Assembly (NCBI GenBank): GCA_043814545.1
Contig: JBDRJY010000007.1
Coordinates: forward strand, 6,819 to 70,818
Source: an archaeon
GTDB taxonomy: Archaea > Nanobdellota > Nanobdellia > SCGC-AAA011-G17 > GW2011-AR17
Length of the DNA: 64,000 nt
Reading direction: 5' to 3'
Below are positions 3,695-62,606 of the stretch, in pieces; position 1 is the stretch's first letter, and each line of letters starts with the position of its first letter. The notes below the pieces were generated by a model. It did not search any database, had not been told where the DNA came from, and worked only from the letters and a program-made list of their open reading frames with translations. The position numbers and the translations under genes were made by a program.

Positions 3695-4489
3695 ATGAAG
3701 AAACGTACAGTACGTTTGATTAGTATTGCAATCATTCTAATTCTCCTTTTAACATTCAGTTCAGCTCTTGTTTTGAAAATAGGTATCTTTTCAGTCTTAA
3801 ATTTTTTTGATGAAGAAGAAAAAATCTCACCTTACTCAGAATTAGTGCAAGACTTTGTTGAAGATTGTATAGAAAATACTGCTCTTGAAGGTATTACTTT
3901 CATAACAAAGGAAGGCAAAACTGTTGTCATTGATGATGAAAGTTTAGACAAAAAATCTAACCTTTCAATTAAAGAAGATTTAGAATTAGAAATTAGTAAC
4001 TATATTGACGAATATTTACCATTATGCACAAACGATTTTGTAAAATTCTTAAACATGGATGTGACAGCTAACGATGAACCGCACACTATTGTTACAATAA
4101 ATGAGAAAGAAGTTATAATTTTAACAAAATGGCCTACTCATGTTAAATACGGCAATAATCTTGATACAATTTCTGAATATGAAATAACATTAGACATGAA
4201 ACTAGGTTTTATCCACAACTTAATCACTGACATTTTCACAACTAAAGAAGAAGTTTGTTTTGAATGTTTACAAGCCGAAAGCGAAAAAGAAAATGTTTAT
4301 GCAAGCTTTTCTTTGTATAAAGAGGATGAGATTATTATTACTATCCTTGAAGAATCCGGTTTATTAGACAAACTACCTTTTACTTACATGTTCAGAATTA
4401 AACATAAGTTAAACGAAAAAGAACAAGAATATTTGGCTAACTATACATTGTTAAAAGATTTAGCACTTACACAAGACGCTCTTGCTTGA
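3695..4489 (+). CDS. hypothetical N-terminally anchored (signal/TM) protein
   Basis: N-terminus MKKRTVRLISIAIILILLLTF is a charged segment followed by a hydrophobic helix. The rest is acidic. Confidence 0.45.
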   Translation: MKKRTVRLISIAIILILLLTFSSALVLKIGIFSVLNFFDEEEKISPYSELVQDFVEDCIENTALEGITFITKEGKTVVIDDESLDKKSNLSIKEDLELEISNYIDEYLPLCTNDFVKFLNMDVTANDEPHTIVTINEKEVIILTKWPTHVKYGNNLDTISEYEITLDMKLGFIHNLITDIFTTKEEVCFECLQAESEKENVYASFSLYKEDEIIITILEESGLLDKLPFTYMFRIKHKLNEKEQEYLANYTLLKDLALTQDALA

Positions 4490-15674: not shown

Positions 15675-18600
15675 TTTTTCTTTACCAGATCAGACGTTTT
15701 CTTAAACGAAGATTCCAATTGTTGGTCTAACTTAGAAGGTTTAAACTCTTGTTTCTTAGCAGTAAACAATTTTTGTGGATTCACAGGCGTAAGTTTTCGC
15801 TTCGTGTTAAATGTTTGAGACTTTTGTTTCTTTTTATAATATATGTAACCTAAATAAACTAATGCTAATAACAAAATCAGGAAAACTAAAATATAAAACC
15901 AAGGTAAAGCAAAACCTTCTTCACAATCTTCAGGACAATTGTTTTCAGTTTCACCATAAGAAGAATCACACCTTTCATTCGGACACAAAGGCATACTATC
16001 AGTTGAATCATCTAAACCATCAGAATCTGAATCCACTTTATACGCACTCGTCCCAATAGAACTTTCATACTTATCACTCAAACCGTCACCGTCAGAATCT
16101 TTGTCAATATCACCAACACCTGAACACGAAGGACATGATGAACCGCCACAATCAACACCGTCTTCGTTACCGTTTCGTAAACCATCATTACATGAAACAC
16201 TTTCACAAGGTTCACAAATAGAACCGCCACAATCAATCTCTTCTTCATCCTGGTTCATAACTGTATCATAACAAGTTGGAAATAAATCGTCAGTAACTTG
16301 ACAATTTTCGTCGTCATTATCCACATAACCGTCACAATCATTATCCAAACCGTCGTTGCAAACTTCTGGGAAAGATTCAATATCATCTTCACAATCACTC
16401 CACGAACCGTTAACACAGAATTGTATACCAGCAACACAAATACCTACGTCAACGCCACAAGTTTGATTCATTCCTTCAGAACAACCACAATTTTCATCAA
16501 CTTCGCCATCACAATCATTGTCTACATTATCACAAACTTCATCACTCCCACCACTGTAAGCAGAACCCGAACAGATTGACCATAAACCATTATCACAATA
16601 TTGTACACCCGACGAACACGCACCAACATCAGTGCCACAGTTTTTAGTTTCGCCAATTGTACAAACACAACCTTCATCAGTTGACCCATCACAATCATCA
16701 TCTAAAGTGTTACAATATTCAGTTTCAGCATAAACAGCACCTTCACAATCACCCCAACCACTATTACTACAAGTTTCAACACCGTACAAACATATGCCTA
16801 TATCAGAATCACCGCATTGTTGCGTATCCTCGTCGGTACAAGCACAACCTTCCTGATCTACACAGTTAGGGTCAGTACAATCAAAGTAACCGTCACAGTC
16901 GTTGTCAAGACCGTCGTTACAGGTTAACTCTTGTTCTTCAGTAGCTTCACAAGTTTCAGCACAATGGTCTTGGTCGTAAGGATCACCAGTCCGGCCACAA
17001 ACAGTATAATCACAATAACTTTCACTAATCCATTTATAATTGTTACACCATTCACCAGCATAAGTATCACAAGTATTTTGCGAACAAACATCAGTACCAC
17101 AATCATAATCTTTGCTACCACAATTCAAACAATAATCTTCAGTTGTCCAACCGTTACTATCACAATATAAATTTTGACCTACATCACACGAACCTTCAAC
17201 ACAACTTTCATAATCAGCATCAACACCACCACAGTTTTGTTCATAATAAGCATAAACCCATTCGCCAAAGCTACAATACGAATTAGATTCAGTGTCACAA
17301 TATCCAGCCAAACATTCACCATACCCAGAACAATCATCATAATCATAAAGTGAACAAGTGTCGCAATAATCAGTCGAGTCCCAACCGCCGTTATGGCACC
17401 ACATATCAGAAGCAACATCACAAGCATTTTCAACACAACCTGACGAGTTAGCAGGATCTTCAGTTATAGATTCACAATATGTATCATCTTCGTCGCAAAG
17501 AACTTGACAATCCGAATCTTGCGCACCGCAAACATGACAATAGTTGTCAGAAACTTGGTTACCTAAATCATCGCACCAAGTGTTATCTTCCAAGTTACAT
17601 ACACCAGGAGTACAAGCACCAAGACAATCAGAATCTTCAGCATCAGTATCACCGTCGCAATCATTATCAATGTTATCTTCACAAGTGCCAAAAGTTTCTT
17701 TTTCAGCGCAAACTAAAAAATCGCCGGAATTATATTTGAAACAATCAAAACCTTCACCGCAAACCCATGAAGTGTACGAAGTATATTCACCAGCATCTTC
17801 ACTTTCAACAGTGTACGAACATTTCACATCTTCATCATACATCTCCACTGTACAAAACGTTTTATTATAACATTCGTTGTTAACCGGTGGCACATCACCG
17901 TCACCGCAAACGTAAAGATTCTTTGTACAAACACCACCTTCATCAATTTGTTCATCACAATCATTATCTTTTCCGTCGCAAATTTCTAAAGCGTAAGGAT
18001 TTATTGAAGGGTAAGCATCATCACAATCTAACTGTTCATAGGTACACTCAGAATGTTCGAACGCACCAAACCCGTCGTTATCTTCATCATAACAACCGCC
18101 TAAAGGATAAACTTGCATCTTCATAAAAATATTAAAATCAGAAGGTTGCACAGCGTCAAAACTAATTGACTTCACTGGTAATGAACGAGTAAATTCAAAC
18201 CCTGAAAACGAATCATAAAATCCGCCTTCTTCAGTATCACCGTTAACAATAATTTTGTTACCTGTTGAATCATCTTCACTTGACAATGCAAACTGATACT
18301 GGCAACCGTTATACAACTCGACAGTAAAATCTCTTATTTTGATTGAACTAAAAGTTTCATAATCAGCATTGTTATAACAATGTTTATCTTTATCATTTTG
18401 TGTAACACAACAATCAGGACGACAATAACCAGCAAATTCAATATGTCTTCTTAACGGTTTATTAATTTCATACTCATAATGATAATAATTTCCACCTGAA
18501 GGATACAACCCAATTTCAGTAAACGGCGTTGCATCATTTATTGCACATTCAGACTCAGGATCAACCCCTTCTTTTGAACAAACACCTTCACTAATAATCC

Positions 18601-20825: not shown

Positions 20826-20849
20826 GGTTTTTGCCTTACGGCTTAAAAG
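20826..20849 (+). promoter_or_regulatory. motif copy 2: GGTTTTTGCCTTACGGCTTAAAAG
   Basis: 24 nt 3' of the tfb stop. A TTTTATATTTTT TATA-like box starts 6 nt beyond it, about 25 nt before the ATG at 20785. Confidence 0.55.
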
Positions 20850-20872
20850 TTATAAAAAATAAAAGAAGAAAT

Positions 20873-22659: not shown

Positions 22660-22833
22660 ATGACTAAAGGAACACCATCCATGGGTAAGAAGAGTGGAAA
22701 AGACGTCCACATCCTTTGCCGTCGATGCGGTAAAGCTAGTTACCACAAAATTCATAGTCGATGTAGTTCGTGCGGTTATGGTTCTACAGCTAAGATGCGT
22801 AAATATAATTGGAATAAGAAACTTAATCATTAA
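22660..22833 (+). CDS. rpl37e: 50S ribosomal protein L37e (57 aa; below ORF-track cutoff)
   Basis: Hand translation gives [57 protein letters not shown]. This carries the L37e C4 zinc ribbon (LCRRCG...CxxCGY). The track ORF 22648..22830(-) is the antisense artefact. Confidence 0.85.
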
Positions 22834-23636
22834 AATTCTATTCTATCCACAATTCTGCTACGATTAATTTCGCACCTATTAGGTACTTTATGAAACACTG
22901 CTTTAATCTTAGTCTTCCACCTTTCGTCCCGATAAGTTTTCTTAATCAAAGTTGCAGCAAGCTTTTTGTATTCTATAGTAGAATTAGATTTAGGCGAAAA
23001 CGAAGTTGAAGGTATATGATTTGCTAACGCAGCCAAAATATTAACATCATCAGGCAACATTGCCAAAACTGAAGCTCCTGCACAATGTTCAACTTCTTCA
23101 ATTGGAACTTCAAATTTTTTATTACGTACTTTGTTAAGAACTATGCCCACAATAGGAGTATTTTTCTTCAAAGCAATTTGGGTCGCATAAATTGTACAAC
23201 TTAAAGTAGGATAATCCGGTGTTGTCACAACAAGAATTTCATCAGATGCTGTCATTGCAGCCAACAGTTCTTCGTGCATTGATGGGCTTGAGTCAATCAA
23301 AATAATATCATAAAACGGTTTTAACGTTTCAAGCTTAGCTGAAAAATTATTCATTTTGTTAATTTTTGTCGGCGGCACCCTTGCAGGTAAAACATGTATA
23401 CCATCGTATTCGTAAATCGCATCTTGAATCTTAGCTTTACCATTAATCACATCATGAATAGTTACATCAGGCTTAACTATCCCTAAATGAATACCAAGGT
23501 TAGGAGCAGAGAAATTTGCATCTACCAAAAGAACTTTCTGACCAAAATCATGAGTCAAGACTGCGCCTAAAGCGACTACTGTTGAAGTCTTACCAACTCC
23601 ACCTTTAATAGAAATTACACCTATCGTTTTCCCCAT
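22830..23636 (-). CDS. ParA/MinD-family P-loop ATPase
   Basis: Deviant Walker [13 protein letters not shown]. 268 aa. Confidence 0.75.
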
Positions 23637-23712
23637 TACAAACCTCTACTTTATATATTGTGTTAAAAATATTTAAACTTATCGTTAATATACGTTTAAG
23701 TCTAGATAAACT

Positions 23713-23735
23713 GGTTTTTGCCTTCGGCTTTTCCG
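23713..23735 (+). promoter_or_regulatory. motif copy 3: GGTTTTTGCCTTCGGCTTTTCCG
   Basis: In the divergent ParA(-)/LAGLIDADG(+) intergenic region. Confidence 0.55.
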
Positions 23736-23792
23736 TAAATTTTCCGGTTTTTTCTAGTCAAAGTTCTTGAAGCGTAAAAACAGATTTTCTTT

Positions 23793-24416
23793 ATGTATTC
23801 AAAAGACTTGTTTTATTTAATTGGAGTAATTTATGGAGATGGACATATTAGGCATGGACCTAAATCAAAAAGTGATCCTTCACTTCATTATGGAATTGCT
23901 ATAGATATTTCTGATATTAATTTTTTAAGAGAAGAGATTCTTCCTTTATTTCAAAAATTTACTAATACTAAAGCTCAAGTAAAAATAAGAACATTTGAAA
24001 ATCGAAAAACAAGAGGTTGTTTAGTTGTAAGTTGTAAAAAATTCTATAAACTTTTAACAGAAGAAATACAAACACACAAAGGACCAAAGACAAGAGATAT
24101 AGATATTTCTCCCGTAATAAAAGCTGCTTCAATGGAATTAAAAAAAGAATTCATTGCTGGATATTTTGATACTGATGGAGGTTTTAGAGGTAAAGTTATT
24201 GGTATTACTACTAACAATAAAAAATTTCAAGAATTTTTCTATCAAACTGTAACAGAAACTGGAATTCGTTGTAGTTATGAAAAATGGTTTAACAAAAAAT
24301 ATCAAAAAGACTATTATGGTGTTAGAATAAAAATTGGCAATATCGATAAGTTTTTAAAGACCTATAGATTACGAAACTTTGAGAAGTTAGCTAAAATAAA
24401 AGCTAAATTTTCTTAA
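23793..24416 (+). CDS. free-standing double-motif LAGLIDADG homing endonuclease-like protein
   Basis: Two LAGLIDADG motifs: LFYLIGVIYGDGHI and FIAGYFDTDGGF. 207 aa. It is not embedded in an intein or in an obvious intron. Confidence 0.7.
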   Translation: MYSKDLFYLIGVIYGDGHIRHGPKSKSDPSLHYGIAIDISDINFLREEILPLFQKFTNTKAQVKIRTFENRKTRGCLVVSCKKFYKLLTEEIQTHKGPKTRDIDISPVIKAASMELKKEFIAGYFDTDGGFRGKVIGITTNNKKFQEFFYQTVTETGIRCSYEKWFNKKYQKDYYGVRIKIGNIDKFLKTYRLRNFEKLAKIKAKFS

Positions 24417-24417
24417 C

Positions 24418-24535
24418 GCGGGGGTGCCGGAGTGGTCAAACGGGCCAGAAATTAACAATAATTGTTGTTAGTTGGTCATGCTTAGGACCTGGTGGCTTAG
24501 TGCCTACGCAGGTTCGAACCCTGTCCCCCGCACCA
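24418..24535 (+). tRNA. tRNA-Leu (anticodon TAG), class II, with ~31-nt intron (24450..24480). CCA encoded
   Basis: Acceptor GCGGGGG/CCCCCGC plus ACCA. Long variable arm TGGCTTAGTGCCTAC. T-arm CAGGTTCGAACCCTG. Removing 24450-24480 gives the anticodon stem-loop CCAGA-CTTAGGA-CCTGG with U33, TAG and G37. The intron boundary can slide by about 1 nt. Confidence 0.7.
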
Positions 24536-30818: not shown

Positions 30819-33800
30819 GCATTAGTACAATAAAATTTCGTAGTCCCTTCAATAAGAGCAAGTTCACAATTTCCAATATCACATATATCATTAGCGCAAG
30901 CTTGAGCAAGCATAGTCGAACCACCATAAACAGATTCAAAGATCAAACTATTATAACTATAACAATAATCTAATCCAAAGTCATAACATGAAAAACATCC
31001 GGAAGCACCTTGTTCAGTTGTACCTAAAAAACAACCATCAATCGCCACACATTTGTCATAGGATGTCCTTGTCCCATCATTACAATCTTCACAAGAAGAA
31101 CAATCTATTTCACCTACACCTGTCAATTGTTCAACATCATAAACATTTAAACCAGCATCCTGGCACGAAGCTTCATCACCTTCTTCTAAATAAAAATAAT
31201 CGCAGCCTAAATTACAAGGATCTTCCTTACAAGTCAACTCAACACTGGAATAAAGCGTCCCTAAATCTGAATAAGTAAAATCAAATACTTTAGTATTATA
31301 ATCATTACAATAATTAATCTCGCTACAATCGCCACACTCCGGACCAGTTCCCCCTTGATACAAAACACAATCGCCGTAATCCTTCATACATATATCATAA
31401 ATTGTTGCAATAGAAGTATCTGCTTGCCAGTATTCGTAAAGTGAATTATAATTTTCACAAACTTTTTCTTCACAAACATTATTTAATTCATCCCAAATAC
31501 ATTCTCCAACACCACATGCGTCAAGCCCACATTCTTTCTGTGCAAAAGATTCATCTAAAACATACCATTCTTCATAATCATAAATACCGTCGTAAGCATA
31601 AGTTGAATAATCAACACAAACGTCAATAGCGTTACAATCTTTGCAATACGATTTACCACCCTCATCACCTAAAAAACATTGACCTCGGTTATAATAATCT
31701 TGATGACACTCGTCAAACGCTTCATTATCTCCTGAAAAACAATCTTTGCCACAATCAGTACAATCGTATTTAGTAACTGAAACACATTCACCACCAAAAT
31801 CTAAACTAGAATCTTCACGCCACGAACAAGTGCCAAACCCGCACGAATCCATTTCACATTCTTTCTGTGCAAAATATTCACCGTCGTACTTATTATCATA
31901 CGCATAATTATAAGTTTCACAATCAGTAATAGCATCGCATGAACGACAATAAGCATTATCGTTATCAAAAGGAGATACAATCAAAACACATTCACCATTT
32001 TCATAATCACGGCTATGACATAAGTCAAAAGCGTTTTCATTTCCCTTAACACAATCATTACACTCTTCACAACTTAAAGCAGTCTTACAACTACCACCAG
32101 CGTTTAAAGTATCATCCTCTTCCCAATAACAAGGACCTTTACTACAACTATCCAATTCACACTCTTTTTTGTAAAAATGTTCATTATCAGTCGCAACACC
32201 GTAATAAGTATAATGTGACATAGAATAACTTTCACATGAAGTTATACCTTGTGAATAAGTCCAGCCCCAATTAACAAGACCAAACGTCCAACTATCACCC
32301 AAACAACTTTTACATTCAGGTTCGCCATTAGCATCATCGCCAAGGAAACAAGCAGTACCTTCAGTCGTACCGTCGTCAGAAAGGTAAACCGTGTCAAGGT
32401 CCGTCGCATAATAACCTACTTGATGACATTTGTCAAATATTGCATTTGCATCTAAAGCAGTGTTAGCATAATCACAAGTTTCATATTGTATTGTAGTAAT
32501 CTCAGGCACACAGTTATGATTTTCGCAAGTGTAAGCTATACCACCATAATAAGCAACATCCAAATCTTCATAATAAGTACCACAATCAGCAGTCGTGCTA
32601 CAATAGTCAGGATAAACATCTTCCTCTAAAGTATTTTCAAGATAACAATAACTGTTTTCACCTTCAGAAAGACATTCATAACCACTAGGACAACCTGTCG
32701 ATGGATAGTCGCAACTTATCCTAGAATCAATAGGGTAACAAGAGTGATACTTACATTCATATTCAATATCTTCATTATTATATACTGTACACTCAGAATC
32801 AACATCACACCAAGTTACAGCAACTCCTGTAAGTTCAAACGTTTGACAATAACCTGCAACACAAACATAATCAGTATTATCAGAACAAAGATTCTTTTCG
32901 TCGCATTCAATCAAACAAACTCCGCTTAAACAATCAGAACCGTCCACACACGTGTTGCCATAGTCACATTTAGGGAACTGTGTTTGTGCATTAGCGTTAA
33001 CATCTTTAGTAGGATTATAATCATAACATAAACCACTAATACAAATTTGGTTGGCAGGATCAGGACAAGGATTAGCATCGTCACAATCAGCAAAACAATA
33101 ACCATCTAAACATTCGCCACCAAGACAATATCCATCATCACATCTTGGTACAGTTATCGAACCAAGCTCTTCAGTAAAACTACCAATATCATCAGTCTTC
33201 AAACAATAATCAGATTTGATACATTCGTAGTCAATGGTAGGACAATCTTCATCTTTATCACACTCAAGCCAACAATCATCACCGTAACAAAGAGCATCTT
33301 GTTTTACACAACAAAGTTCAGGGTCAGAATTACATAACTTGGGCGAACACGAAGCAGAAACATCACACGAACTATAATATTCCCAAATACCATTTTGACA
33401 TTTGCCAACAGTAAGAGACACACCAGTAAGAGACACACCATAATAATCACTAATAATATCTAAGCACGCATAATCTTGATTATCATCAGAACAATCGCTG
33501 CCATATTCAAAATATCCTACATCAACTTGAACAACTTCTTCTTCGACAACAGTTGTAGTAGTTGTAGTAATATCATCTGCAGCTTCAAGCGCAGCTTCTT
33601 CTACGTCAGACAAAGGTTCTAAACCTTCATCTTCACCCATCAGAGTTTGCGTATCAGTTGTCTTCATACCACCCATTGTTTTGAACAACTGTCCGATTTT
33701 GTAAAGAGACTGCAATTCTACATCTGGAGATAAAGTACGCTCATACAAATCATTAAAGGCATTAACCAACTCCACCATTTCATTCATTGTTGTAGCTGTT

Positions 33801-41049: not shown

Positions 41050-41106
41050 ATATTGACTTATAGCGTATATAGGTTTAAAAATCTTTTGTTATATATAGAA
41101 GAAACT

Positions 41107-41129
41107 TGGTTTTTGCCTTCGGCTGGAAT
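41107..41129 (+). promoter_or_regulatory. motif copy 4: GGTTTTTGCCTTCGGCTGGAATG
   Basis: Abuts the 3' end of tRNA-Val(-), 58-80 nt upstream of the 39049..41049 start. Confidence 0.55.
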
Positions 41130-46051: not shown

Positions 46052-46136
46052 TTTTATATCTCAGCATGTGAAAGTCCGTTTGAACAATCTACATCCGTTA
46101 GCGATTAATGAATTAAGAGGTCTTTATAAAAGTTTC

Positions 46137-46159
46137 GGGTTTTGCCTGCGGCTGAAAAG
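46137..46159 (+). promoter_or_regulatory. motif copy 5: GGGTTTTGCCTGCGGCTGAAAAG
   Basis: Sits between two divergent TATA-like boxes: CTTTTATAAAG for rps15(-), and TTATAAAT at 46162-46169 for the plus gene at 46191. Confidence 0.55.
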
Positions 46160-48291: not shown

Positions 48292-48399
48292 TAGCCCCGC
48301 GCGGATTCGAACCGCGGTCTCCGCCTTTCCCTTGAAAGATATCAATTAAGACATCATCCATCCAAAGGGCGAAATGATTGGCCACTACACTACGGGGCT
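48292..48399 (-). tRNA. tRNA-Gln (anticodon TTG) with canonical 35-nt intron after position 37
   Basis: Reverse complement is AGCCCCG...GTAGTGGCCAATCA..TCGCC-CTTTGG[ATGGATGATGTCTTAATTGATATCTTTCAAGGGAA]A-GGCGG-AGAC-CGCGG-TTCGAAT-CCGCG-CGGGGCT-A. The exon CCCTT pairs with intron AAGGG, as in a bulge-helix-bulge. Confidence 0.75.
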
Positions 48400-62192: not shown

Positions 62193-62215
62193 AGTTTTGC
62201 CTTACGGCTGAAAGG
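62193..62215 (+). promoter_or_regulatory. motif copy 8: AGTTTTGCCTTACGGCTGAAAGG
   Basis: Immediately 3' of the stop of 62217..62606(-). A TTATATAAAT box follows about 22 nt before the ileS ATG. Confidence 0.55.
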
Positions 62216-62216
62216 T

Positions 62217-62606
62217 TTATTTTGGTTTAATATCATGTACACTGCGCTTTACAACTTTCATATCAGACTTTAATCCAGTTATATCGCGTTTTAAATCCCT
62301 AACATCCATTTTCATCTCAGAAAAATCTTTTCTATGAGTTTTAAAATCAGAAGCTAAAGCATTAAATTGATTTCTTAAATGTTTTACATCAGAATTTAAT
62401 TTACTCAAAGAAAATCCTAAGCCAATAGTAATGGTAAGGTTTGCTACTAAAAATGCAATAATTATATCTTCTTTCACCCAAGATCCACCTAAAATTTTTC
62501 TTAATATTTGAAAAATAATAAACAATCCAAAAATGATTATAAAAATATATATTAAATGGCGTAAGGTTTTGTTCAAAAATATTTTATTAGTTATTTTTTT
62601 AAACAT
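62217..62606 (-). CDS. small membrane protein with coiled-coil C-terminus
   Basis: N-terminal TM (LIYIFIIIFGLFIIF) and a second TM, then a K/D-rich helical tail. A paralogous N-terminal fragment lies 300 bp upstream. Confidence 0.45.
   Translation of the reverse strand: MFKKITNKIFLNKTLRHLIYIFIIIFGLFIIFQILRKILGGSWVKEDIIIAFLVANLTITIGLGFSLSKLNSDVKHLRNQFNALASDFKTHRKDFSEMKMDVRDLKRDITGLKSDMKVVKRSVHDIKPK

What the first reader, a model, noticed from the sequence alone, without database searches (positions are those of the whole stretch)
23793..24535. Free-standing LAGLIDADG homing-endonuclease-like gene ending 1 nt before an intron-containing tRNA-Leu
A 207-aa protein with two LAGLIDADG motifs (LIGVIYGDGH, IAGYFDTDGG) is encoded with its own promoter, in a region that also carries a motif copy. 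It is not inside an intein, a group I intron or an rRNA intron. Its stop codon (24414-24416) is followed 1 nt later by the first base of a tRNA-Leu that itself contains an intron. Archaeal LAGLIDADG enzymes are normally intron- or intein-encoded, so a free-standing copy adjoining a tRNA is unusual. It could be a domesticated endonuclease, a remnant of a mobile element that used the tRNA gene as an integration site, or a tRNA/rRNA-intron-derived ORF that relocated.
Basis: partly seen in the sequence, partly recalled or inferred. Interest (0 to 1): 0.55.

Follow-up and report, generated by a model that had tools for sequence, protein, structure and literature searches.

The report
Homing endonuclease gene docked on tRNA-Leu
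An intact DNA-cutting "selfish" gene sits flush against the start of an intron-bearing leucine tRNA gene, and its relatives in tiny DPANN archaea are almost always in that position, which hints that odd archaeal tRNA introns may shield tRNA genes from such enzymes.

Summary
The ORF at 23793-24416 encodes a 207-aa two-motif LAGLIDADG protein (Pfam PF14528). Its predicted fold matches I-DmoI and both catalytic Asp are conserved. One base later, tRNA-Leu(UAG) begins (24418-24535). It carries a 31-nt bulge-helix-bulge intron at the non-canonical position 30/31.

This is not a stray gene. About 35 distinct relatives, down to 33% identity, sit directly 5' of tRNA-Leu(UAG) in Woese-/Pacearchaeota-type genomes; one GC-rich locus is unresolved. 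Most ORFs run into the tRNA, so their C-termini are tRNA sequence translated in any of three frames.

- **Presence/absence:** closely related genomes carry an "empty" site, L37e-promoter-tRNA.
- **Decay and selection:** decayed copies exist, yet dN/dS is 0.11-0.22.
- **Embedded promoter:** an invariant TTTTTAA lies in the last codons, about 64 nt before the tRNA. It probably replaces the displaced tRNA promoter.
- **Insertion point:** some relatives keep an upstream relic of tRNA positions 1-21, marking insertion at 21/22.
- **Altered targets:** every carrier tRNA has an intron (27/33 at 30/31) or a substitution (11:24, or C32T) within about 11 bp of that point. Ten of 19 non-carriers are unaltered.

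Best reading: a selfish endonuclease targets the tRNA gene and the intron confers immunity. The cleavage site is inferred, not shown.

The parts
23793..24416 (+). Free-standing single-chain LAGLIDADG homing endonuclease gene (207 aa), I-DmoI-like
   Evidence: ORF. Pfam PF14528 E = 7e-10. Best PDB sequence hit is I-DmoI. AlphaFold2 model pLDDT 92.5. Foldseek best match I-DmoI, TM 0.69/0.80, rmsd 2.8 A. dN/dS 0.11 against L007.
23817..23843 (+). LAGLIDADG motif 1 (LIGVIYGDG); D16 aligns with catalytic D21 of I-DmoI
   Evidence: HMMER alignment to I-DmoI. G15-D16-G17 are conserved in all family members that cover this region. Motif present in nearly all loci.
24153..24179 (+). LAGLIDADG motif 2 (IAGYFDTDG); D128 is the second catalytic acidic residue
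   Evidence: F120, A122, G123, D126, T127, D128, G129 and G130 are invariant in alignment A1. Motif seen in loci L001-L141.
24351..24358 (+). TTTTTAAA inside codons F-L-K: probable TATA box for the downstream tRNA, embedded in the coding sequence (inferred)
   Evidence: Exact TTTTTAA lies at -63..-69 of tRNA +1 in 27 of 30 distinct loci. Codon usage would give TTT-TTA in about 32% of cases, binomial P = 4e-11. Loci without the gene have CTTTTTAA-type boxes at -28..-50.
24418..24448 (+). tRNA-Leu(UAG) 5' exon (tRNA positions 1-30)
   Evidence: Rfam tRNA 37.7 bits. ARAGORN calls tRNA-Leu(tag) after in-silico splicing.
24449..24479 (+). 31-nt bulge-helix-bulge intron at non-canonical position 30/31 (anticodon stem)
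   Evidence: A 4-bp central helix joins tRNA 25-28 (GGCC) to intron GGUC, flanked by bulges AG|A and AU|G. Across 31 relatives 124/124 cells pair, 14 with changes on both sides; slid controls pair 6-52%.
24480..24535 (+). tRNA-Leu(UAG) 3' exon with anticodon TAG (24483-24485), long variable arm, and encoded CCA (24533-24535)
23637..23792 (.). Divergent intergenic region between the ParA-like gene (-) and the endonuclease gene (+). It holds a terminator-like hairpin at 23713-23735. The endonuclease promoter was not identified.
   Evidence: Relative L007 has 381 extra bases (a 105-aa ORF) inserted at window 23701-23714.

Best explanation
The ORF is an active-type, single-chain LAGLIDADG homing endonuclease gene (HEG). 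It belongs to a lineage that lives at one address: the 5' edge of the tRNA-Leu(UAG) gene of Woesearchaeota/Pacearchaeota-like DPANN archaea.

Proposed mechanism, with each step marked as shown or inferred:
1. (Inferred) The enzyme recognises and cuts HEG-less tRNA-Leu(UAG) genes inside the D-arm/anticodon-stem region, roughly tRNA positions 11-32.
2. (Inferred from relics in relatives) Repair from a carrier chromosome copies a cassette made of the endonuclease gene plus a fresh copy of the tRNA 5' segment. The insertion point is 21/22.
3. (Abutment shown; promoter function inferred) The essential tRNA stays functional because the cassette ends exactly at tRNA +1. Its last codons also contain a TATA-like TTTTTAA at a fixed distance of about -64.
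4. (Inferred from allele patterns) The carrier's own tRNA gene escapes cutting because the 31-nt BHB intron at 30/31 splits the recognition site. In carriers lacking that intron, a D-stem 11:24 change, C32T or a 37/38 intron plays this role.
5. (Shown) The gene is under purifying selection. It is polymorphic between close relatives and occasionally decays.

In many relatives the ORF has no stop codon of its own and reads into the tRNA. The mRNA must therefore overlap the pre-tRNA, and 5' processing of the tRNA would truncate it.
For: Identity: Pfam LAGLIDADG_3; I-DmoI is the best sequence hit and the best fold hit; both catalytic Asp are conserved family-wide.

Linkage: the first 11 homologues all end at or inside tRNA-Leu(UAG). 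In the metagenome scan, every family locus whose downstream sequence could be read, bar GC-rich L136, has the tRNA within a few nt. Distant members L146 and L148 also do. C-terminal tails are tRNA sequence read in all three frames in 57/131 representatives against 1/131 in control windows.

Selfish behaviour: L022 is an empty site (L37e, 54-nt promoter, then a tRNA with an identical intron). L001 has 682 nt there instead, with flanks 98% and 91% identical. The L022 intergenic region looks homologous by eye to that of L032, so the empty site is probably ancestral. Carriers and non-carriers are interleaved on a host-marker tree. Decayed copies: L023, L130, L133/134. dN/dS is 0.11-0.22.

Target inside the tRNA:
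- Upstream relics of tRNA 1-21/23, all breaking after A21, occur in L131/132, L118, L114, L005 and L126. In L131 the relic lies behind a canonical promoter 40 nt after L37e.
- The 30/31 intron is present in 27/33 carriers and 5/19 non-carriers (P = 1e-4).
- An uninterrupted consensus across positions 20-41 is found in 0/33 carriers and 10/19 non-carriers (P = 6e-6).
- Three independent carriers lacking the 30/31 intron (L006, L007, L121) all have the 11:24 C:G to T:A change, which 0/27 carriers with that intron have.
- L006 differs from its HEG-less sister L028 only at tRNA positions 11 and 24.
- The window and L007 tRNAs differ by the intron plus 9 substitutions clustered at positions 10, 24-29 and 41-43.

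Embedded promoter.
Against: - No cleavage assay exists, so the recognition site is inferred only from allele patterns defined after looking at the data.
- Sampling frames differ. Carriers came mostly from a protein-pattern scan and non-carriers from a tRNA 3'-half pattern. Within the single GTDB scan the intron association is only 4/6 against 5/19.
- 30/31 introns also occur in other tRNA-Leu isoacceptors with no endonuclease gene nearby (L042, L063, L082, L094), so the intron may simply be old in these lineages.
- L001 and L022 differ in the endonuclease gene but share an identical intron-bearing tRNA. This shows the gene can come or go without the intron changing.
- Endonuclease identity never exceeds host LSM+L37e identity. 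No recent transfer between lineages is therefore visible, and long vertical inheritance is compatible with a host function.
- The window's own clade has no upstream relic.
Confidence: 0.55

Rival explanations
1. It is a selfish free-standing homing endonuclease, but its target is the junction between the tRNA promoter and the tRNA 5' end, or another nearby site. Insertion itself destroys that site. The 30/31 intron and the D-stem variants are then lineage history and have nothing to do with the enzyme.
For: The gene always ends at tRNA -2..+1. L001 and L022 differ only in the gene while sharing an identical intron-bearing tRNA. 30/31 introns exist in other Leu isoacceptors without the gene. 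Within the GTDB scan alone the intron association is weak.
Against: Sequence upstream of tRNA +1 in empty sites is AT-rich and not conserved, which makes a poor half-site for a roughly 22-bp LAGLIDADG target. This model does not explain why 0/33 carriers keep an unaltered 20-41 region. It does not explain the recurrent 11:24 change in three independent carriers that lack the 30/31 intron. It does not explain why the relics all break at 21/22 rather than at +1.
Confidence: 0.2
2. It is a domesticated LAGLIDADG protein kept for a host function tied to tRNA-Leu(UAG). Examples would be a maturase-like helper that folds or presents the relaxed BHB of the 30/31 intron, or a DNA-binding regulator of the tRNA locus. 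It would be inherited vertically and lost now and then.
For: Purifying selection is strong, dN/dS 0.11-0.22. The gene persists in one syntenic position across lineages whose host markers are only 55-85% identical, and endonuclease divergence tracks host divergence (Pearson 0.61) with no sign of transfer. It co-occurs with the 30/31 intron. LAGLIDADG maturases such as bI3 appear among the fold matches.
Against: Both catalytic Asp are invariant, whereas dedicated maturases and regulators usually lose them (established knowledge). Intron-bearing tRNAs do well without the gene: L022, L014, L031, L035, L106 and other isoacceptors. Very close relatives differ in presence. Decayed copies exist. Many ORFs end at an arbitrary point inside the tRNA, which fits a parasite better than an optimised host gene.
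Confidence: 0.15
3. The gene is, or recently was, intron-encoded. In relic-bearing relatives the true 5' exon would be the upstream copy of tRNA 1-21. The endonuclease gene would lie in a giant D-loop BHB intron whose 3' end repeats exon 1; the palindromic GGCC:GGCC helix with AA|A bulges would form the BHB. The window would be a derived state in which the upstream exon was lost.
For: The upstream copies are 23/23 identical to the downstream copy in L131 and L118. They lie behind a proper promoter and all end at the same point. The D-loop UGGCCA is self-complementary, so a 4-bp helix with two 3-nt bulges can be drawn (inference). The closest solved relative, I-DmoI, is encoded in an archaeal rRNA BHB intron.
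Against: The downstream tRNA copy is complete and would be released by RNase P without any splicing. The L114 relic has an acceptor sequence that no longer pairs with the 3' end, and the L005 relic is interrupted. Most loci, including the window, have no upstream copy. A duplex-fold trial was uninformative.
Confidence: 0.08
4. It is a dead relic ORF or a chance ORF with no function.
For: AT-rich genomes give long chance ORFs. A few relatives carry stop codons.
Against: dN/dS is 0.11-0.22. The fold is predicted with high confidence. Catalytic motifs are conserved in about 40 loci.
Confidence: 0.02

Closest known systems
I-DmoI and other archaeal single-chain LAGLIDADG homing endonucleases (I-PorI, I-Tsp061I, I-Vdi141I)
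   Same: Both are about 200-aa monomers with two LAGLIDADG motifs and the alpha-beta-beta-alpha-beta-beta-alpha x2 fold, and each motif ends in an acidic catalytic residue. I-DmoI is the best sequence hit and the best fold hit. Both come from an archaeal host and are associated with a gene for a stable RNA that carries a BHB intron.
   Different: Those enzymes are encoded inside rRNA introns. This one lies outside any intron, directly upstream of a tRNA gene, and the nearby BHB intron is only 31 nt and has no ORF. Sequence identity is only about 24%.
Collaborative (trans) homing: free-standing endonuclease plus ORF-less intron (F-CphI/psbA in cyanophage S-PM2; mobE/I-TevIII nrdB in T4; PMC2790892, PMC6083498)
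   Same: A free-standing endonuclease gene lies next to a gene whose ORF-less intron would interrupt the enzyme's target. The intron would give immunity and be co-converted with the endonuclease gene.
   Different: The known cases are in phages. They use group I self-splicing introns and HNH or Endo VII-type nucleases, and their cleavage sites were mapped experimentally. Here the host is a cellular archaeon, the intron is enzyme-spliced (BHB), the nuclease is LAGLIDADG, and the target is only inferred.
Free-standing mitochondrial endonuclease genes that insert into the end of a gene and carry a replacement copy of the displaced segment (e.g. the Allomyces atp6-linked ORF; recalled from the literature, not checked here)
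   Same: The mobile cassette brings its own copy of the terminal part of the target gene, so the gene stays intact. The resident fragment is left behind as a relic. This matches the upstream tRNA 1-21 copies in L131, L118, L114 and L005.
   Different: Those cases concern protein-coding genes and their 3' ends. Here it is the 5' end of a tRNA gene, so the cassette must also supply a promoter (the embedded TTTTTAA).
tRNA-gene-targeting integrative elements (integrase/att systems) and the Randau-Soll idea that introns protect tRNA genes from them (cited in PMC4090602, PMC4033280)
   Same: The tRNA gene is the landing site, a partial tRNA duplication occurs in relatives, and an intron is a possible shield.
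   Different: There is no integrase, the cassette is only about 0.7-0.9 kb, the duplication is of the 5' end rather than the 3' end, and there is no att repeat in the window.
SegB, the free-standing GIY-YIG endonuclease in the phage T4 tRNA gene cluster (from memory; see PMC2988022 for T4 mobile elements)
   Same: It is a free-standing homing endonuclease gene located among tRNA genes, and it cuts in a tRNA gene region of relatives that lack it.
   Different: It is a phage enzyme of a different nuclease family, it does not overlap a tRNA, and no intron is involved.

Membership tests
LAGLIDADG homing endonuclease (single-chain, two-motif) | Profile-HMM membership | tested here: met
   PF14528 39.4 bits, cut-off 22.5. 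PHROG endonuclease family E = 2e-6. PDB phmmer best hit is I-DmoI.
LAGLIDADG homing endonuclease (single-chain, two-motif) | Two LAGLIDADG helices, each ending in a conserved acidic residue | tested here: met
   D16 aligns with I-DmoI D21. D128 lies in the invariant DTDGG. Both motifs are present in almost all of about 40 loci.
LAGLIDADG homing endonuclease (single-chain, two-motif) | Pseudo-dimeric alpha-beta-beta-alpha-beta-beta-alpha fold | tested here: met
   AlphaFold2 pLDDT 92.5, pTM 0.90. Foldseek match to I-DmoI: TM 0.69/0.80, rmsd 2.8 A over 190 columns.
LAGLIDADG homing endonuclease (single-chain, two-motif) | Site-specific double-strand DNA cleavage of a long target | not testable with these tools
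   Needs the protein and substrates. Only allele patterns are available.
LAGLIDADG homing endonuclease (single-chain, two-motif) | Encoded within an intron or intein (I- or PI- type) | tested here: not met
   No intein, group I intron or rRNA around the ORF. This makes it the free-standing (F-) type.
LAGLIDADG homing endonuclease (single-chain, two-motif) | Selfish-element population signature: presence/absence at one site in close relatives, and decayed copies | tested here: met
   L001 against L022. Interleaving on the tree. Decayed copies L023, L130, L133/134.
Collaborative homing system (free-standing endonuclease + ORF-less intron) | Endonuclease gene adjacent to a gene carrying an ORF-less intron | tested here: met
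   The gene ends 31 nt upstream of the intron. 27/33 carrier loci have the 30/31 intron.
Collaborative homing system (free-standing endonuclease + ORF-less intron) | The intron interrupts the enzyme's recognition site and confers immunity | tested here: inconclusive
   Indirect only. 0/33 carriers against 10/19 non-carriers keep an unaltered 20-41 region. The 11:24 variant occurs only in carriers that lack the 30/31 intron. Relics place insertion at 21/22. Sampling caveat applies.
Collaborative homing system (free-standing endonuclease + ORF-less intron) | The intron is a self-splicing group I intron | tested here: not met
   The 31-nt intron has a BHB motif. No group I match in Rfam.
Archaeal bulge-helix-bulge tRNA intron | 3-nt bulge, 4-bp helix, 3-nt bulge at the splice sites | tested here: met
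   124/124 cells paired, compensatory changes at 27:(intron -5), slid controls 6-52%. The outer exon helix is weak, so this is a relaxed motif.
Archaeal bulge-helix-bulge tRNA intron | Removal yields a canonical tRNA | tested here: met
   ARAGORN calls tRNA-Leu(tag) after in-silico splicing.
Archaeal bulge-helix-bulge tRNA intron | Canonical position 37/38 | tested here: not met
   The intron lies at 30/31.
Integrase-type element integrated at a tRNA gene | Integrase gene and att direct repeat of the tRNA 3' end | tested here: not met
   No second copy of the tRNA 3' or 5' end in the window. Neighbouring genes are ParA-like, EamA and HAD.

The most novel reading that the evidence does not exclude
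A whole lineage of LAGLIDADG endonucleases attacks the tRNA-Leu gene itself in DPANN archaea. It has at least 38 clusters at 50% identity, probably hundreds. The non-canonical BHB intron at 30/31, and perhaps the pile-up of up to four introns seen in L005, would be maintained and/or spread because it breaks the enzyme's recognition site. This would be the first concrete molecular driver for the gain and retention of non-canonical archaeal tRNA introns. It would also be a cellular, BHB-intron version of collaborative homing, in which the endonuclease gene enters an essential tRNA gene by carrying a spare 5' exon and an embedded promoter.
Probability: 0.4. Interest if true: 0.88.

Novelty: new variant of a known kind. 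Interest (0 to 1): 0.74.

Why it matters
Why archaeal tRNA genes carry introns at odd positions, and how those introns spread, is an open question. [quoted passage not shown] The idea that introns shield tRNA genes from mobile elements (Randau and Soll, cited there) has lacked a concrete attacker.

This locus offers one. It has a defined enzyme, a defined 84-nt target gene, and natural alleles of all four kinds: gene present or absent, intron present or absent. The hypothesis can therefore be tested with a simple cleavage assay.

The locus also shows a new way for a homing endonuclease gene to occupy an essential gene without an intron or intein. The gene abuts or overlaps the tRNA, supplies a promoter from within its own codons, and in relatives carries a duplicate 5' exon.

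There is a practical point too. Gene callers extend these ORFs into the tRNA, and tRNA finders miss the intron-bearing tRNA-Leu, so both are mis-annotated in DPANN genomes. The family would also add new rare-cutting specificities.

Tried and rejected
- ARAGORN with default settings missed the tRNA, and in intron mode it mis-called it tRNA-Pro. Minimum-free-energy folding gave neither a cloverleaf nor a BHB. I used Rfam, manual parsing and covariation instead.
- Rfam at gathering threshold did not report the intron-bearing tRNAs in L001-L005. I found them by reading the sequence.
- No att-like repeats of the tRNA ends exist in the window.
- A test for recent horizontal transfer was negative. 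Endonuclease identity never exceeds LSM+L37e identity.
- NCBIfam hits to RFC and IF-2 models are far below their cut-offs. I take them to reflect intein endonuclease domains within those models; this was not checked.
- 'GCACGGGTGC' upstream of the L006 gene looked like a tRNA relic. It is part of a spacer motif (CTGGACA..GCGCG..TATTTAAA) shared with L005 and L131, so I rejected it.
- A duplex-fold trial of the possible giant D-loop intron was uninformative, because CCGG and GGCC palindromes allow many pairings.
- Two loci stay unresolved. L136 is GC-rich with no recognisable tRNA. L147 has a class II tRNA, perhaps Ser, with complex insertions.
- Literature searches found no description of this association.
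Full report
**1.
The window has an ORF at 23793-24416 (+) of 207 aa. It carries LIGVIYGDG (residues 9-17) and IAGYFDTDG (residues 121-129). Its TAA stop lies at 24414-24416. After one base (C24417), an Rfam-supported tRNA begins at 24418 (37.7 bits, cut-off 29). ARAGORN does not see this tRNA. Once 24449-24479 is removed, it calls tRNA-Leu with anticodon TAG. CCA is encoded at 24533-24535.

The 31-nt intron is not at the canonical 37/38 site. It splits the anticodon stem between tRNA positions 30 and 31. The flanking genes show an archaeon: TFB, S8e, an Sm-like protein and L37e. The closest public loci come from Woesearchaeota, Pacearchaeota and Nanoarchaeota metagenome bins.

**2. The protein is a homing-endonuclease-type LAGLIDADG enzyme.**
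- Pfam LAGLIDADG_3 matches at E = 7e-10.
- The best solved relative by sequence is I-DmoI, and D16 aligns with its catalytic D21.
- An AlphaFold2 model built on the family alignment has pLDDT 92.5.
- Its best fold match is again I-DmoI (TM 0.69/0.80, rmsd 2.8 A), followed by intein endonucleases.
- In the family alignment the GDG of motif 1 and the DTDGG of motif 2 are conserved. Both motifs are present in almost all of about 40 loci examined.
- dN/dS is 0.11 against the 95%-identical relative and 0.12-0.22 for deeper pairs. The protein is therefore maintained by selection.

**3. The intron is a real bulge-helix-bulge intron.**
Exon bases 25-28 (GGCC) pair with the intron bases GGUC that lie just before its last two bases. 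This leaves two 3-nt bulges, AG|A and AU|G, each holding a splice site. In 31 distinct relatives all 124 cells of this 4-bp helix form standard pairs. Fourteen cells changed on both sides. Sliding the partner by 1-3 columns drops pairing to 6-52%. The outer exon helix is weak, so the motif is of the relaxed kind. The literature associates relaxed motifs with broad-specificity splicing endonucleases (PMC3239211, PMC5829648).

**4. The adjacency is a property of the whole family.**
The word-indexed search found only 11 homologues. In every recovered locus the gene lies directly 5' of tRNA-Leu(UAG). In most, the called ORF has no stop before the tRNA and runs into it.

That explains the odd C-termini. 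'...CAGAGVVKRAG', '...RVPERSNGLE' and, in more distant members, '...CRSGQTG' are the tRNA 5' end read in the three frames. Thirteen representatives end in QA or YA because their stop codon is the anticodon TAG itself, following an intron that ends ...CCAA.

A metagenome scan added 37 loci. Every locus whose downstream sequence could be read has tRNA-Leu(UAG) within a few bases of the conserved protein end, except GC-rich L136. The excluded loci are the contig-truncated L139-L141 and the 26-29% hits L142-L145, which are probably not family members.

An exhaustive profile search gave 38 clusters (50% identity) at E <= 1e-30 and 380 at E <= 1e-10. tRNA-derived tails occur in 27 of the best 37 full-length representatives and in 57/131 overall. 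The control, internal windows of the same proteins, gave 1/131.

Spot checks of distant members:
- L146: tRNA-Leu(UAG) with a different D-arm but again a 30/31 intron.
- L148: tRNA-Leu(UAG) with 30/31 and 37/38 introns.
- L149: tRNA-Leu(CAG) without an intron.
- L147: an unresolved class II tRNA.
- L102: a separate LAGLIDADG_3 gene lies about 100 nt upstream of a tRNA-Leu(UAA) that has a 30/31 intron.

**5. It behaves like a selfish element, on a long leash.**
tRNA-Leu(UAG) lies in an old synteny, TFB-S8e-LSM-L37e-tRNA. About a dozen genomes have this arrangement without the endonuclease gene.

L022 is the clearest empty site. It has L37e, then 54 nt with a CCTTTTTAAAA box, then a tRNA whose sequence and 30-nt intron are identical to those of L001. 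In L001, 682 nt containing the gene replace those 54 nt. The flanks are 98% (upstream) and 91% (downstream) identical. By eye, the L022 intergenic region is homologous to that of the more distant empty site L032. The empty state is therefore probably ancestral and not a deletion scar.

On a rough LSM+L37e tree, carriers and non-carriers are interleaved as sister pairs. Decayed copies exist. L023 keeps only the last 78 codons directly after L37e. L130 and L133/134 have internal stops.

Against active spread between lineages, endonuclease identity never exceeds host-marker identity and correlates with it (Pearson 0.61). Any homing would therefore be within populations or between close relatives. 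Between the window and L007, the endonuclease dS (0.26) is lower than that of the neighbouring ParA-like gene (0.55). This is only a mild hint of more recent shared ancestry.

**6. How the tRNA survives.**
The gene occupies the place of the tRNA promoter. In 27 of 30 distinct carrier loci, an exact TTTTTAA lies 63-69 nt (mostly 64) before tRNA +1. It sits inside codons Phe-Leu-(Lys/Asn/Ser). In the window it is at 24351-24358. From the family's own codon usage (TTT 77%, TTA 41%), that spelling is expected in about a third of sequences (binomial P = 4e-11).

HEG-less loci carry the same kind of box 28-50 nt before the tRNA. I infer that the coding sequence carries a replacement TATA box for the tRNA. 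This is not shown. Where the ORF reads into the tRNA, its mRNA must overlap the pre-tRNA, and RNase P cleavage would leave it without a stop codon. That is a possible brake on expression (inference).

**7. Where does the enzyme cut?**
Three lines of indirect evidence point inside the tRNA gene.

(a) *Relics.* In L131/132, L118, L114, L005 and L126, a second copy of tRNA positions 1-21/23 lies 160-290 nt upstream of the endonuclease gene. Alignment scores are 10-23 against 7-9.5 for shuffles. In L131 the copy sits 40 nt after L37e behind a TATTTTTAAAG box, which is where the tRNA starts in empty sites. All full-length copies (L131/132, L118, L114, L005) break after A21; the L126 relic covers only positions 1-10. 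So a cassette of spacer, endonuclease gene and a fresh tRNA 1-21 entered at 21/22. A LAGLIDADG site of about 22 bp centred there spans roughly positions 11-32.

(b) *Alterations in carriers.* All 33 distinct carrier tRNAs are altered in that span or just beside it.
- 27 have the 30/31 intron.
- Three independent carriers that lack it (L006, L007, L121) share a D-stem 11:24 C:G to T:A change. This change was seen in none of the 27 intron-bearing carriers and in none of the 19 HEG-less UAG tRNAs.
- L137 and L038 have C32T.
- L135 has only a 37/38 intron.
- By contrast, 10 of 19 HEG-less UAG tRNAs are unaltered (Fisher P = 6e-6).

(c) *Sister contrasts.* L006 (carrier) and L028 (HEG-less) differ in the whole tRNA only at positions 11 and 24. 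The window and L007 differ by the intron plus nine substitutions clustered at 10, 24-29 and 41-43, in an otherwise nearly identical tRNA. L109 (carrier, intron) pairs with L032 (neither).

Caveats:
- The categories were defined after seeing the data.
- Carriers and non-carriers came from different scans. Within the GTDB scan alone the intron association is only 4/6 against 5/19.
- 30/31 introns also occur in other Leu isoacceptors without a nearby endonuclease gene.
- L001 and L022 show that the gene can differ while the intron does not.

**8. Verdict on mechanism.**

| Claim | My confidence |
|---|---|
| It is a functional LAGLIDADG endonuclease gene | about 0.9 |
| The family is specifically tied to the 5' edge of tRNA-Leu genes | about 0.95 |
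| The tie reflects selfish homing rather than a host function | about 0.7 |
| The target lies within the tRNA, with the intron or variants giving immunity | about 0.45-0.5 |

The main rivals are a junction target with a coincidental intron (0.2), domestication as a maturase or regulator (0.15), and an intron-encoded origin still active in relic-bearing relatives (0.08).

**9. Comparison with what is known.**
In fold and chemistry this is an I-DmoI-type enzyme. In genetic logic it most resembles collaborative or trans homing in phages (PMC2790892, PMC6083498). It also resembles mitochondrial free-standing endonuclease genes that bring a replacement gene end. It differs from all of these in several ways:
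- The host is a cellular archaeon.
- The target is a tRNA gene.
- The intron is an enzyme-spliced BHB intron.
- The gene abuts or overlaps the tRNA and seems to supply its promoter.

Full-text searches found no description of a LAGLIDADG/tRNA-Leu association in archaea. A review states that the mechanism of archaeal tRNA intron transposition is unknown and cites the protective-intron idea (PMC4090602).

I classify the finding as a new variant of a known kind.

Noticed in passing
L005 4655-4934: The tRNA-Leu(UAG) next to the distant family member P0010 appears to hold four introns: at 30/31, at 37/38, in the variable arm and in the T-loop. After removing all four in silico, ARAGORN calls tRNA-Leu(tag).
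   Followed up: partly
window 23713-23735; also about 20826-20851, 41095-41119, 46124-46148, 62195-62217: A recurring motif GGTTTTTGCCTT(A)CGGC, a short GC hairpin flanked by T-runs, lies downstream of genes. One copy is next to tRNA-Val. In L007 it follows the stop codon of an extra ORF. It looks like a terminator-type element of this organism.
   Followed up: partly
window 23701-23714 versus L007 2020-2400: The 89%-identical relative L007 has 381 extra bases here, encoding a 105-aa ORF with no Pfam match. The window keeps only the hairpin that follows that ORF. This is an indel right next to the endonuclease gene.
   Followed up: partly
window 24536 onwards versus L007 3197 onwards: Similarity between the window and L007 stops exactly at the 3' end of the tRNA. 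The window continues with EamA transporter and HAD hydrolase genes, while L007 continues with a 104-aa ORF and a TrmB-type regulator. L001-type relatives have a glycosyltransferase there. The 3' flank of the tRNA is a rearrangement hotspot.
   Followed up: no
window 22830-23636 (-): A ParA/MinD-like ATPase gene lies between L37e and the endonuclease gene only in the window/L007/L008 lineage. Other relatives have L37e directly before the endonuclease gene or the tRNA.
   Followed up: no
window 48292-48399 (-): A second intron-containing tRNA (Rfam 46.1 bits, with a 38-nt insertion in the anticodon loop region) that ARAGORN did not report.
   Followed up: no
L102 (oriented upstream segment), L149, L147: Related or parallel LAGLIDADG genes sit upstream of other tRNAs. 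L102 has tRNA-Leu(UAA) with a 30/31 intron, and the gene ends about 100 nt before it. L149 has tRNA-Leu(CAG) without an intron. L147 has a class II tRNA with complex insertions, perhaps Ser(UGA). The phenomenon may extend beyond the UAG isoacceptor.
   Followed up: partly
L005 about 3950-3990, L131 about 2930-2970, L006 about 3945-3990: A conserved spacer motif CTGGACA...GCGCG...TATTTAAA lies upstream of the endonuclease gene in distant relatives. It may be the gene's own BRE/TATA promoter. The window has only GAAGCGTAAAAACAG at the corresponding place.
   Followed up: no
window 16332-17986 and 31442-31880: Families of 24-67-nt direct repeats (TCACAATCATTATC...-type) fall within large ORF regions. 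They probably encode repeated protein modules.
   Followed up: no
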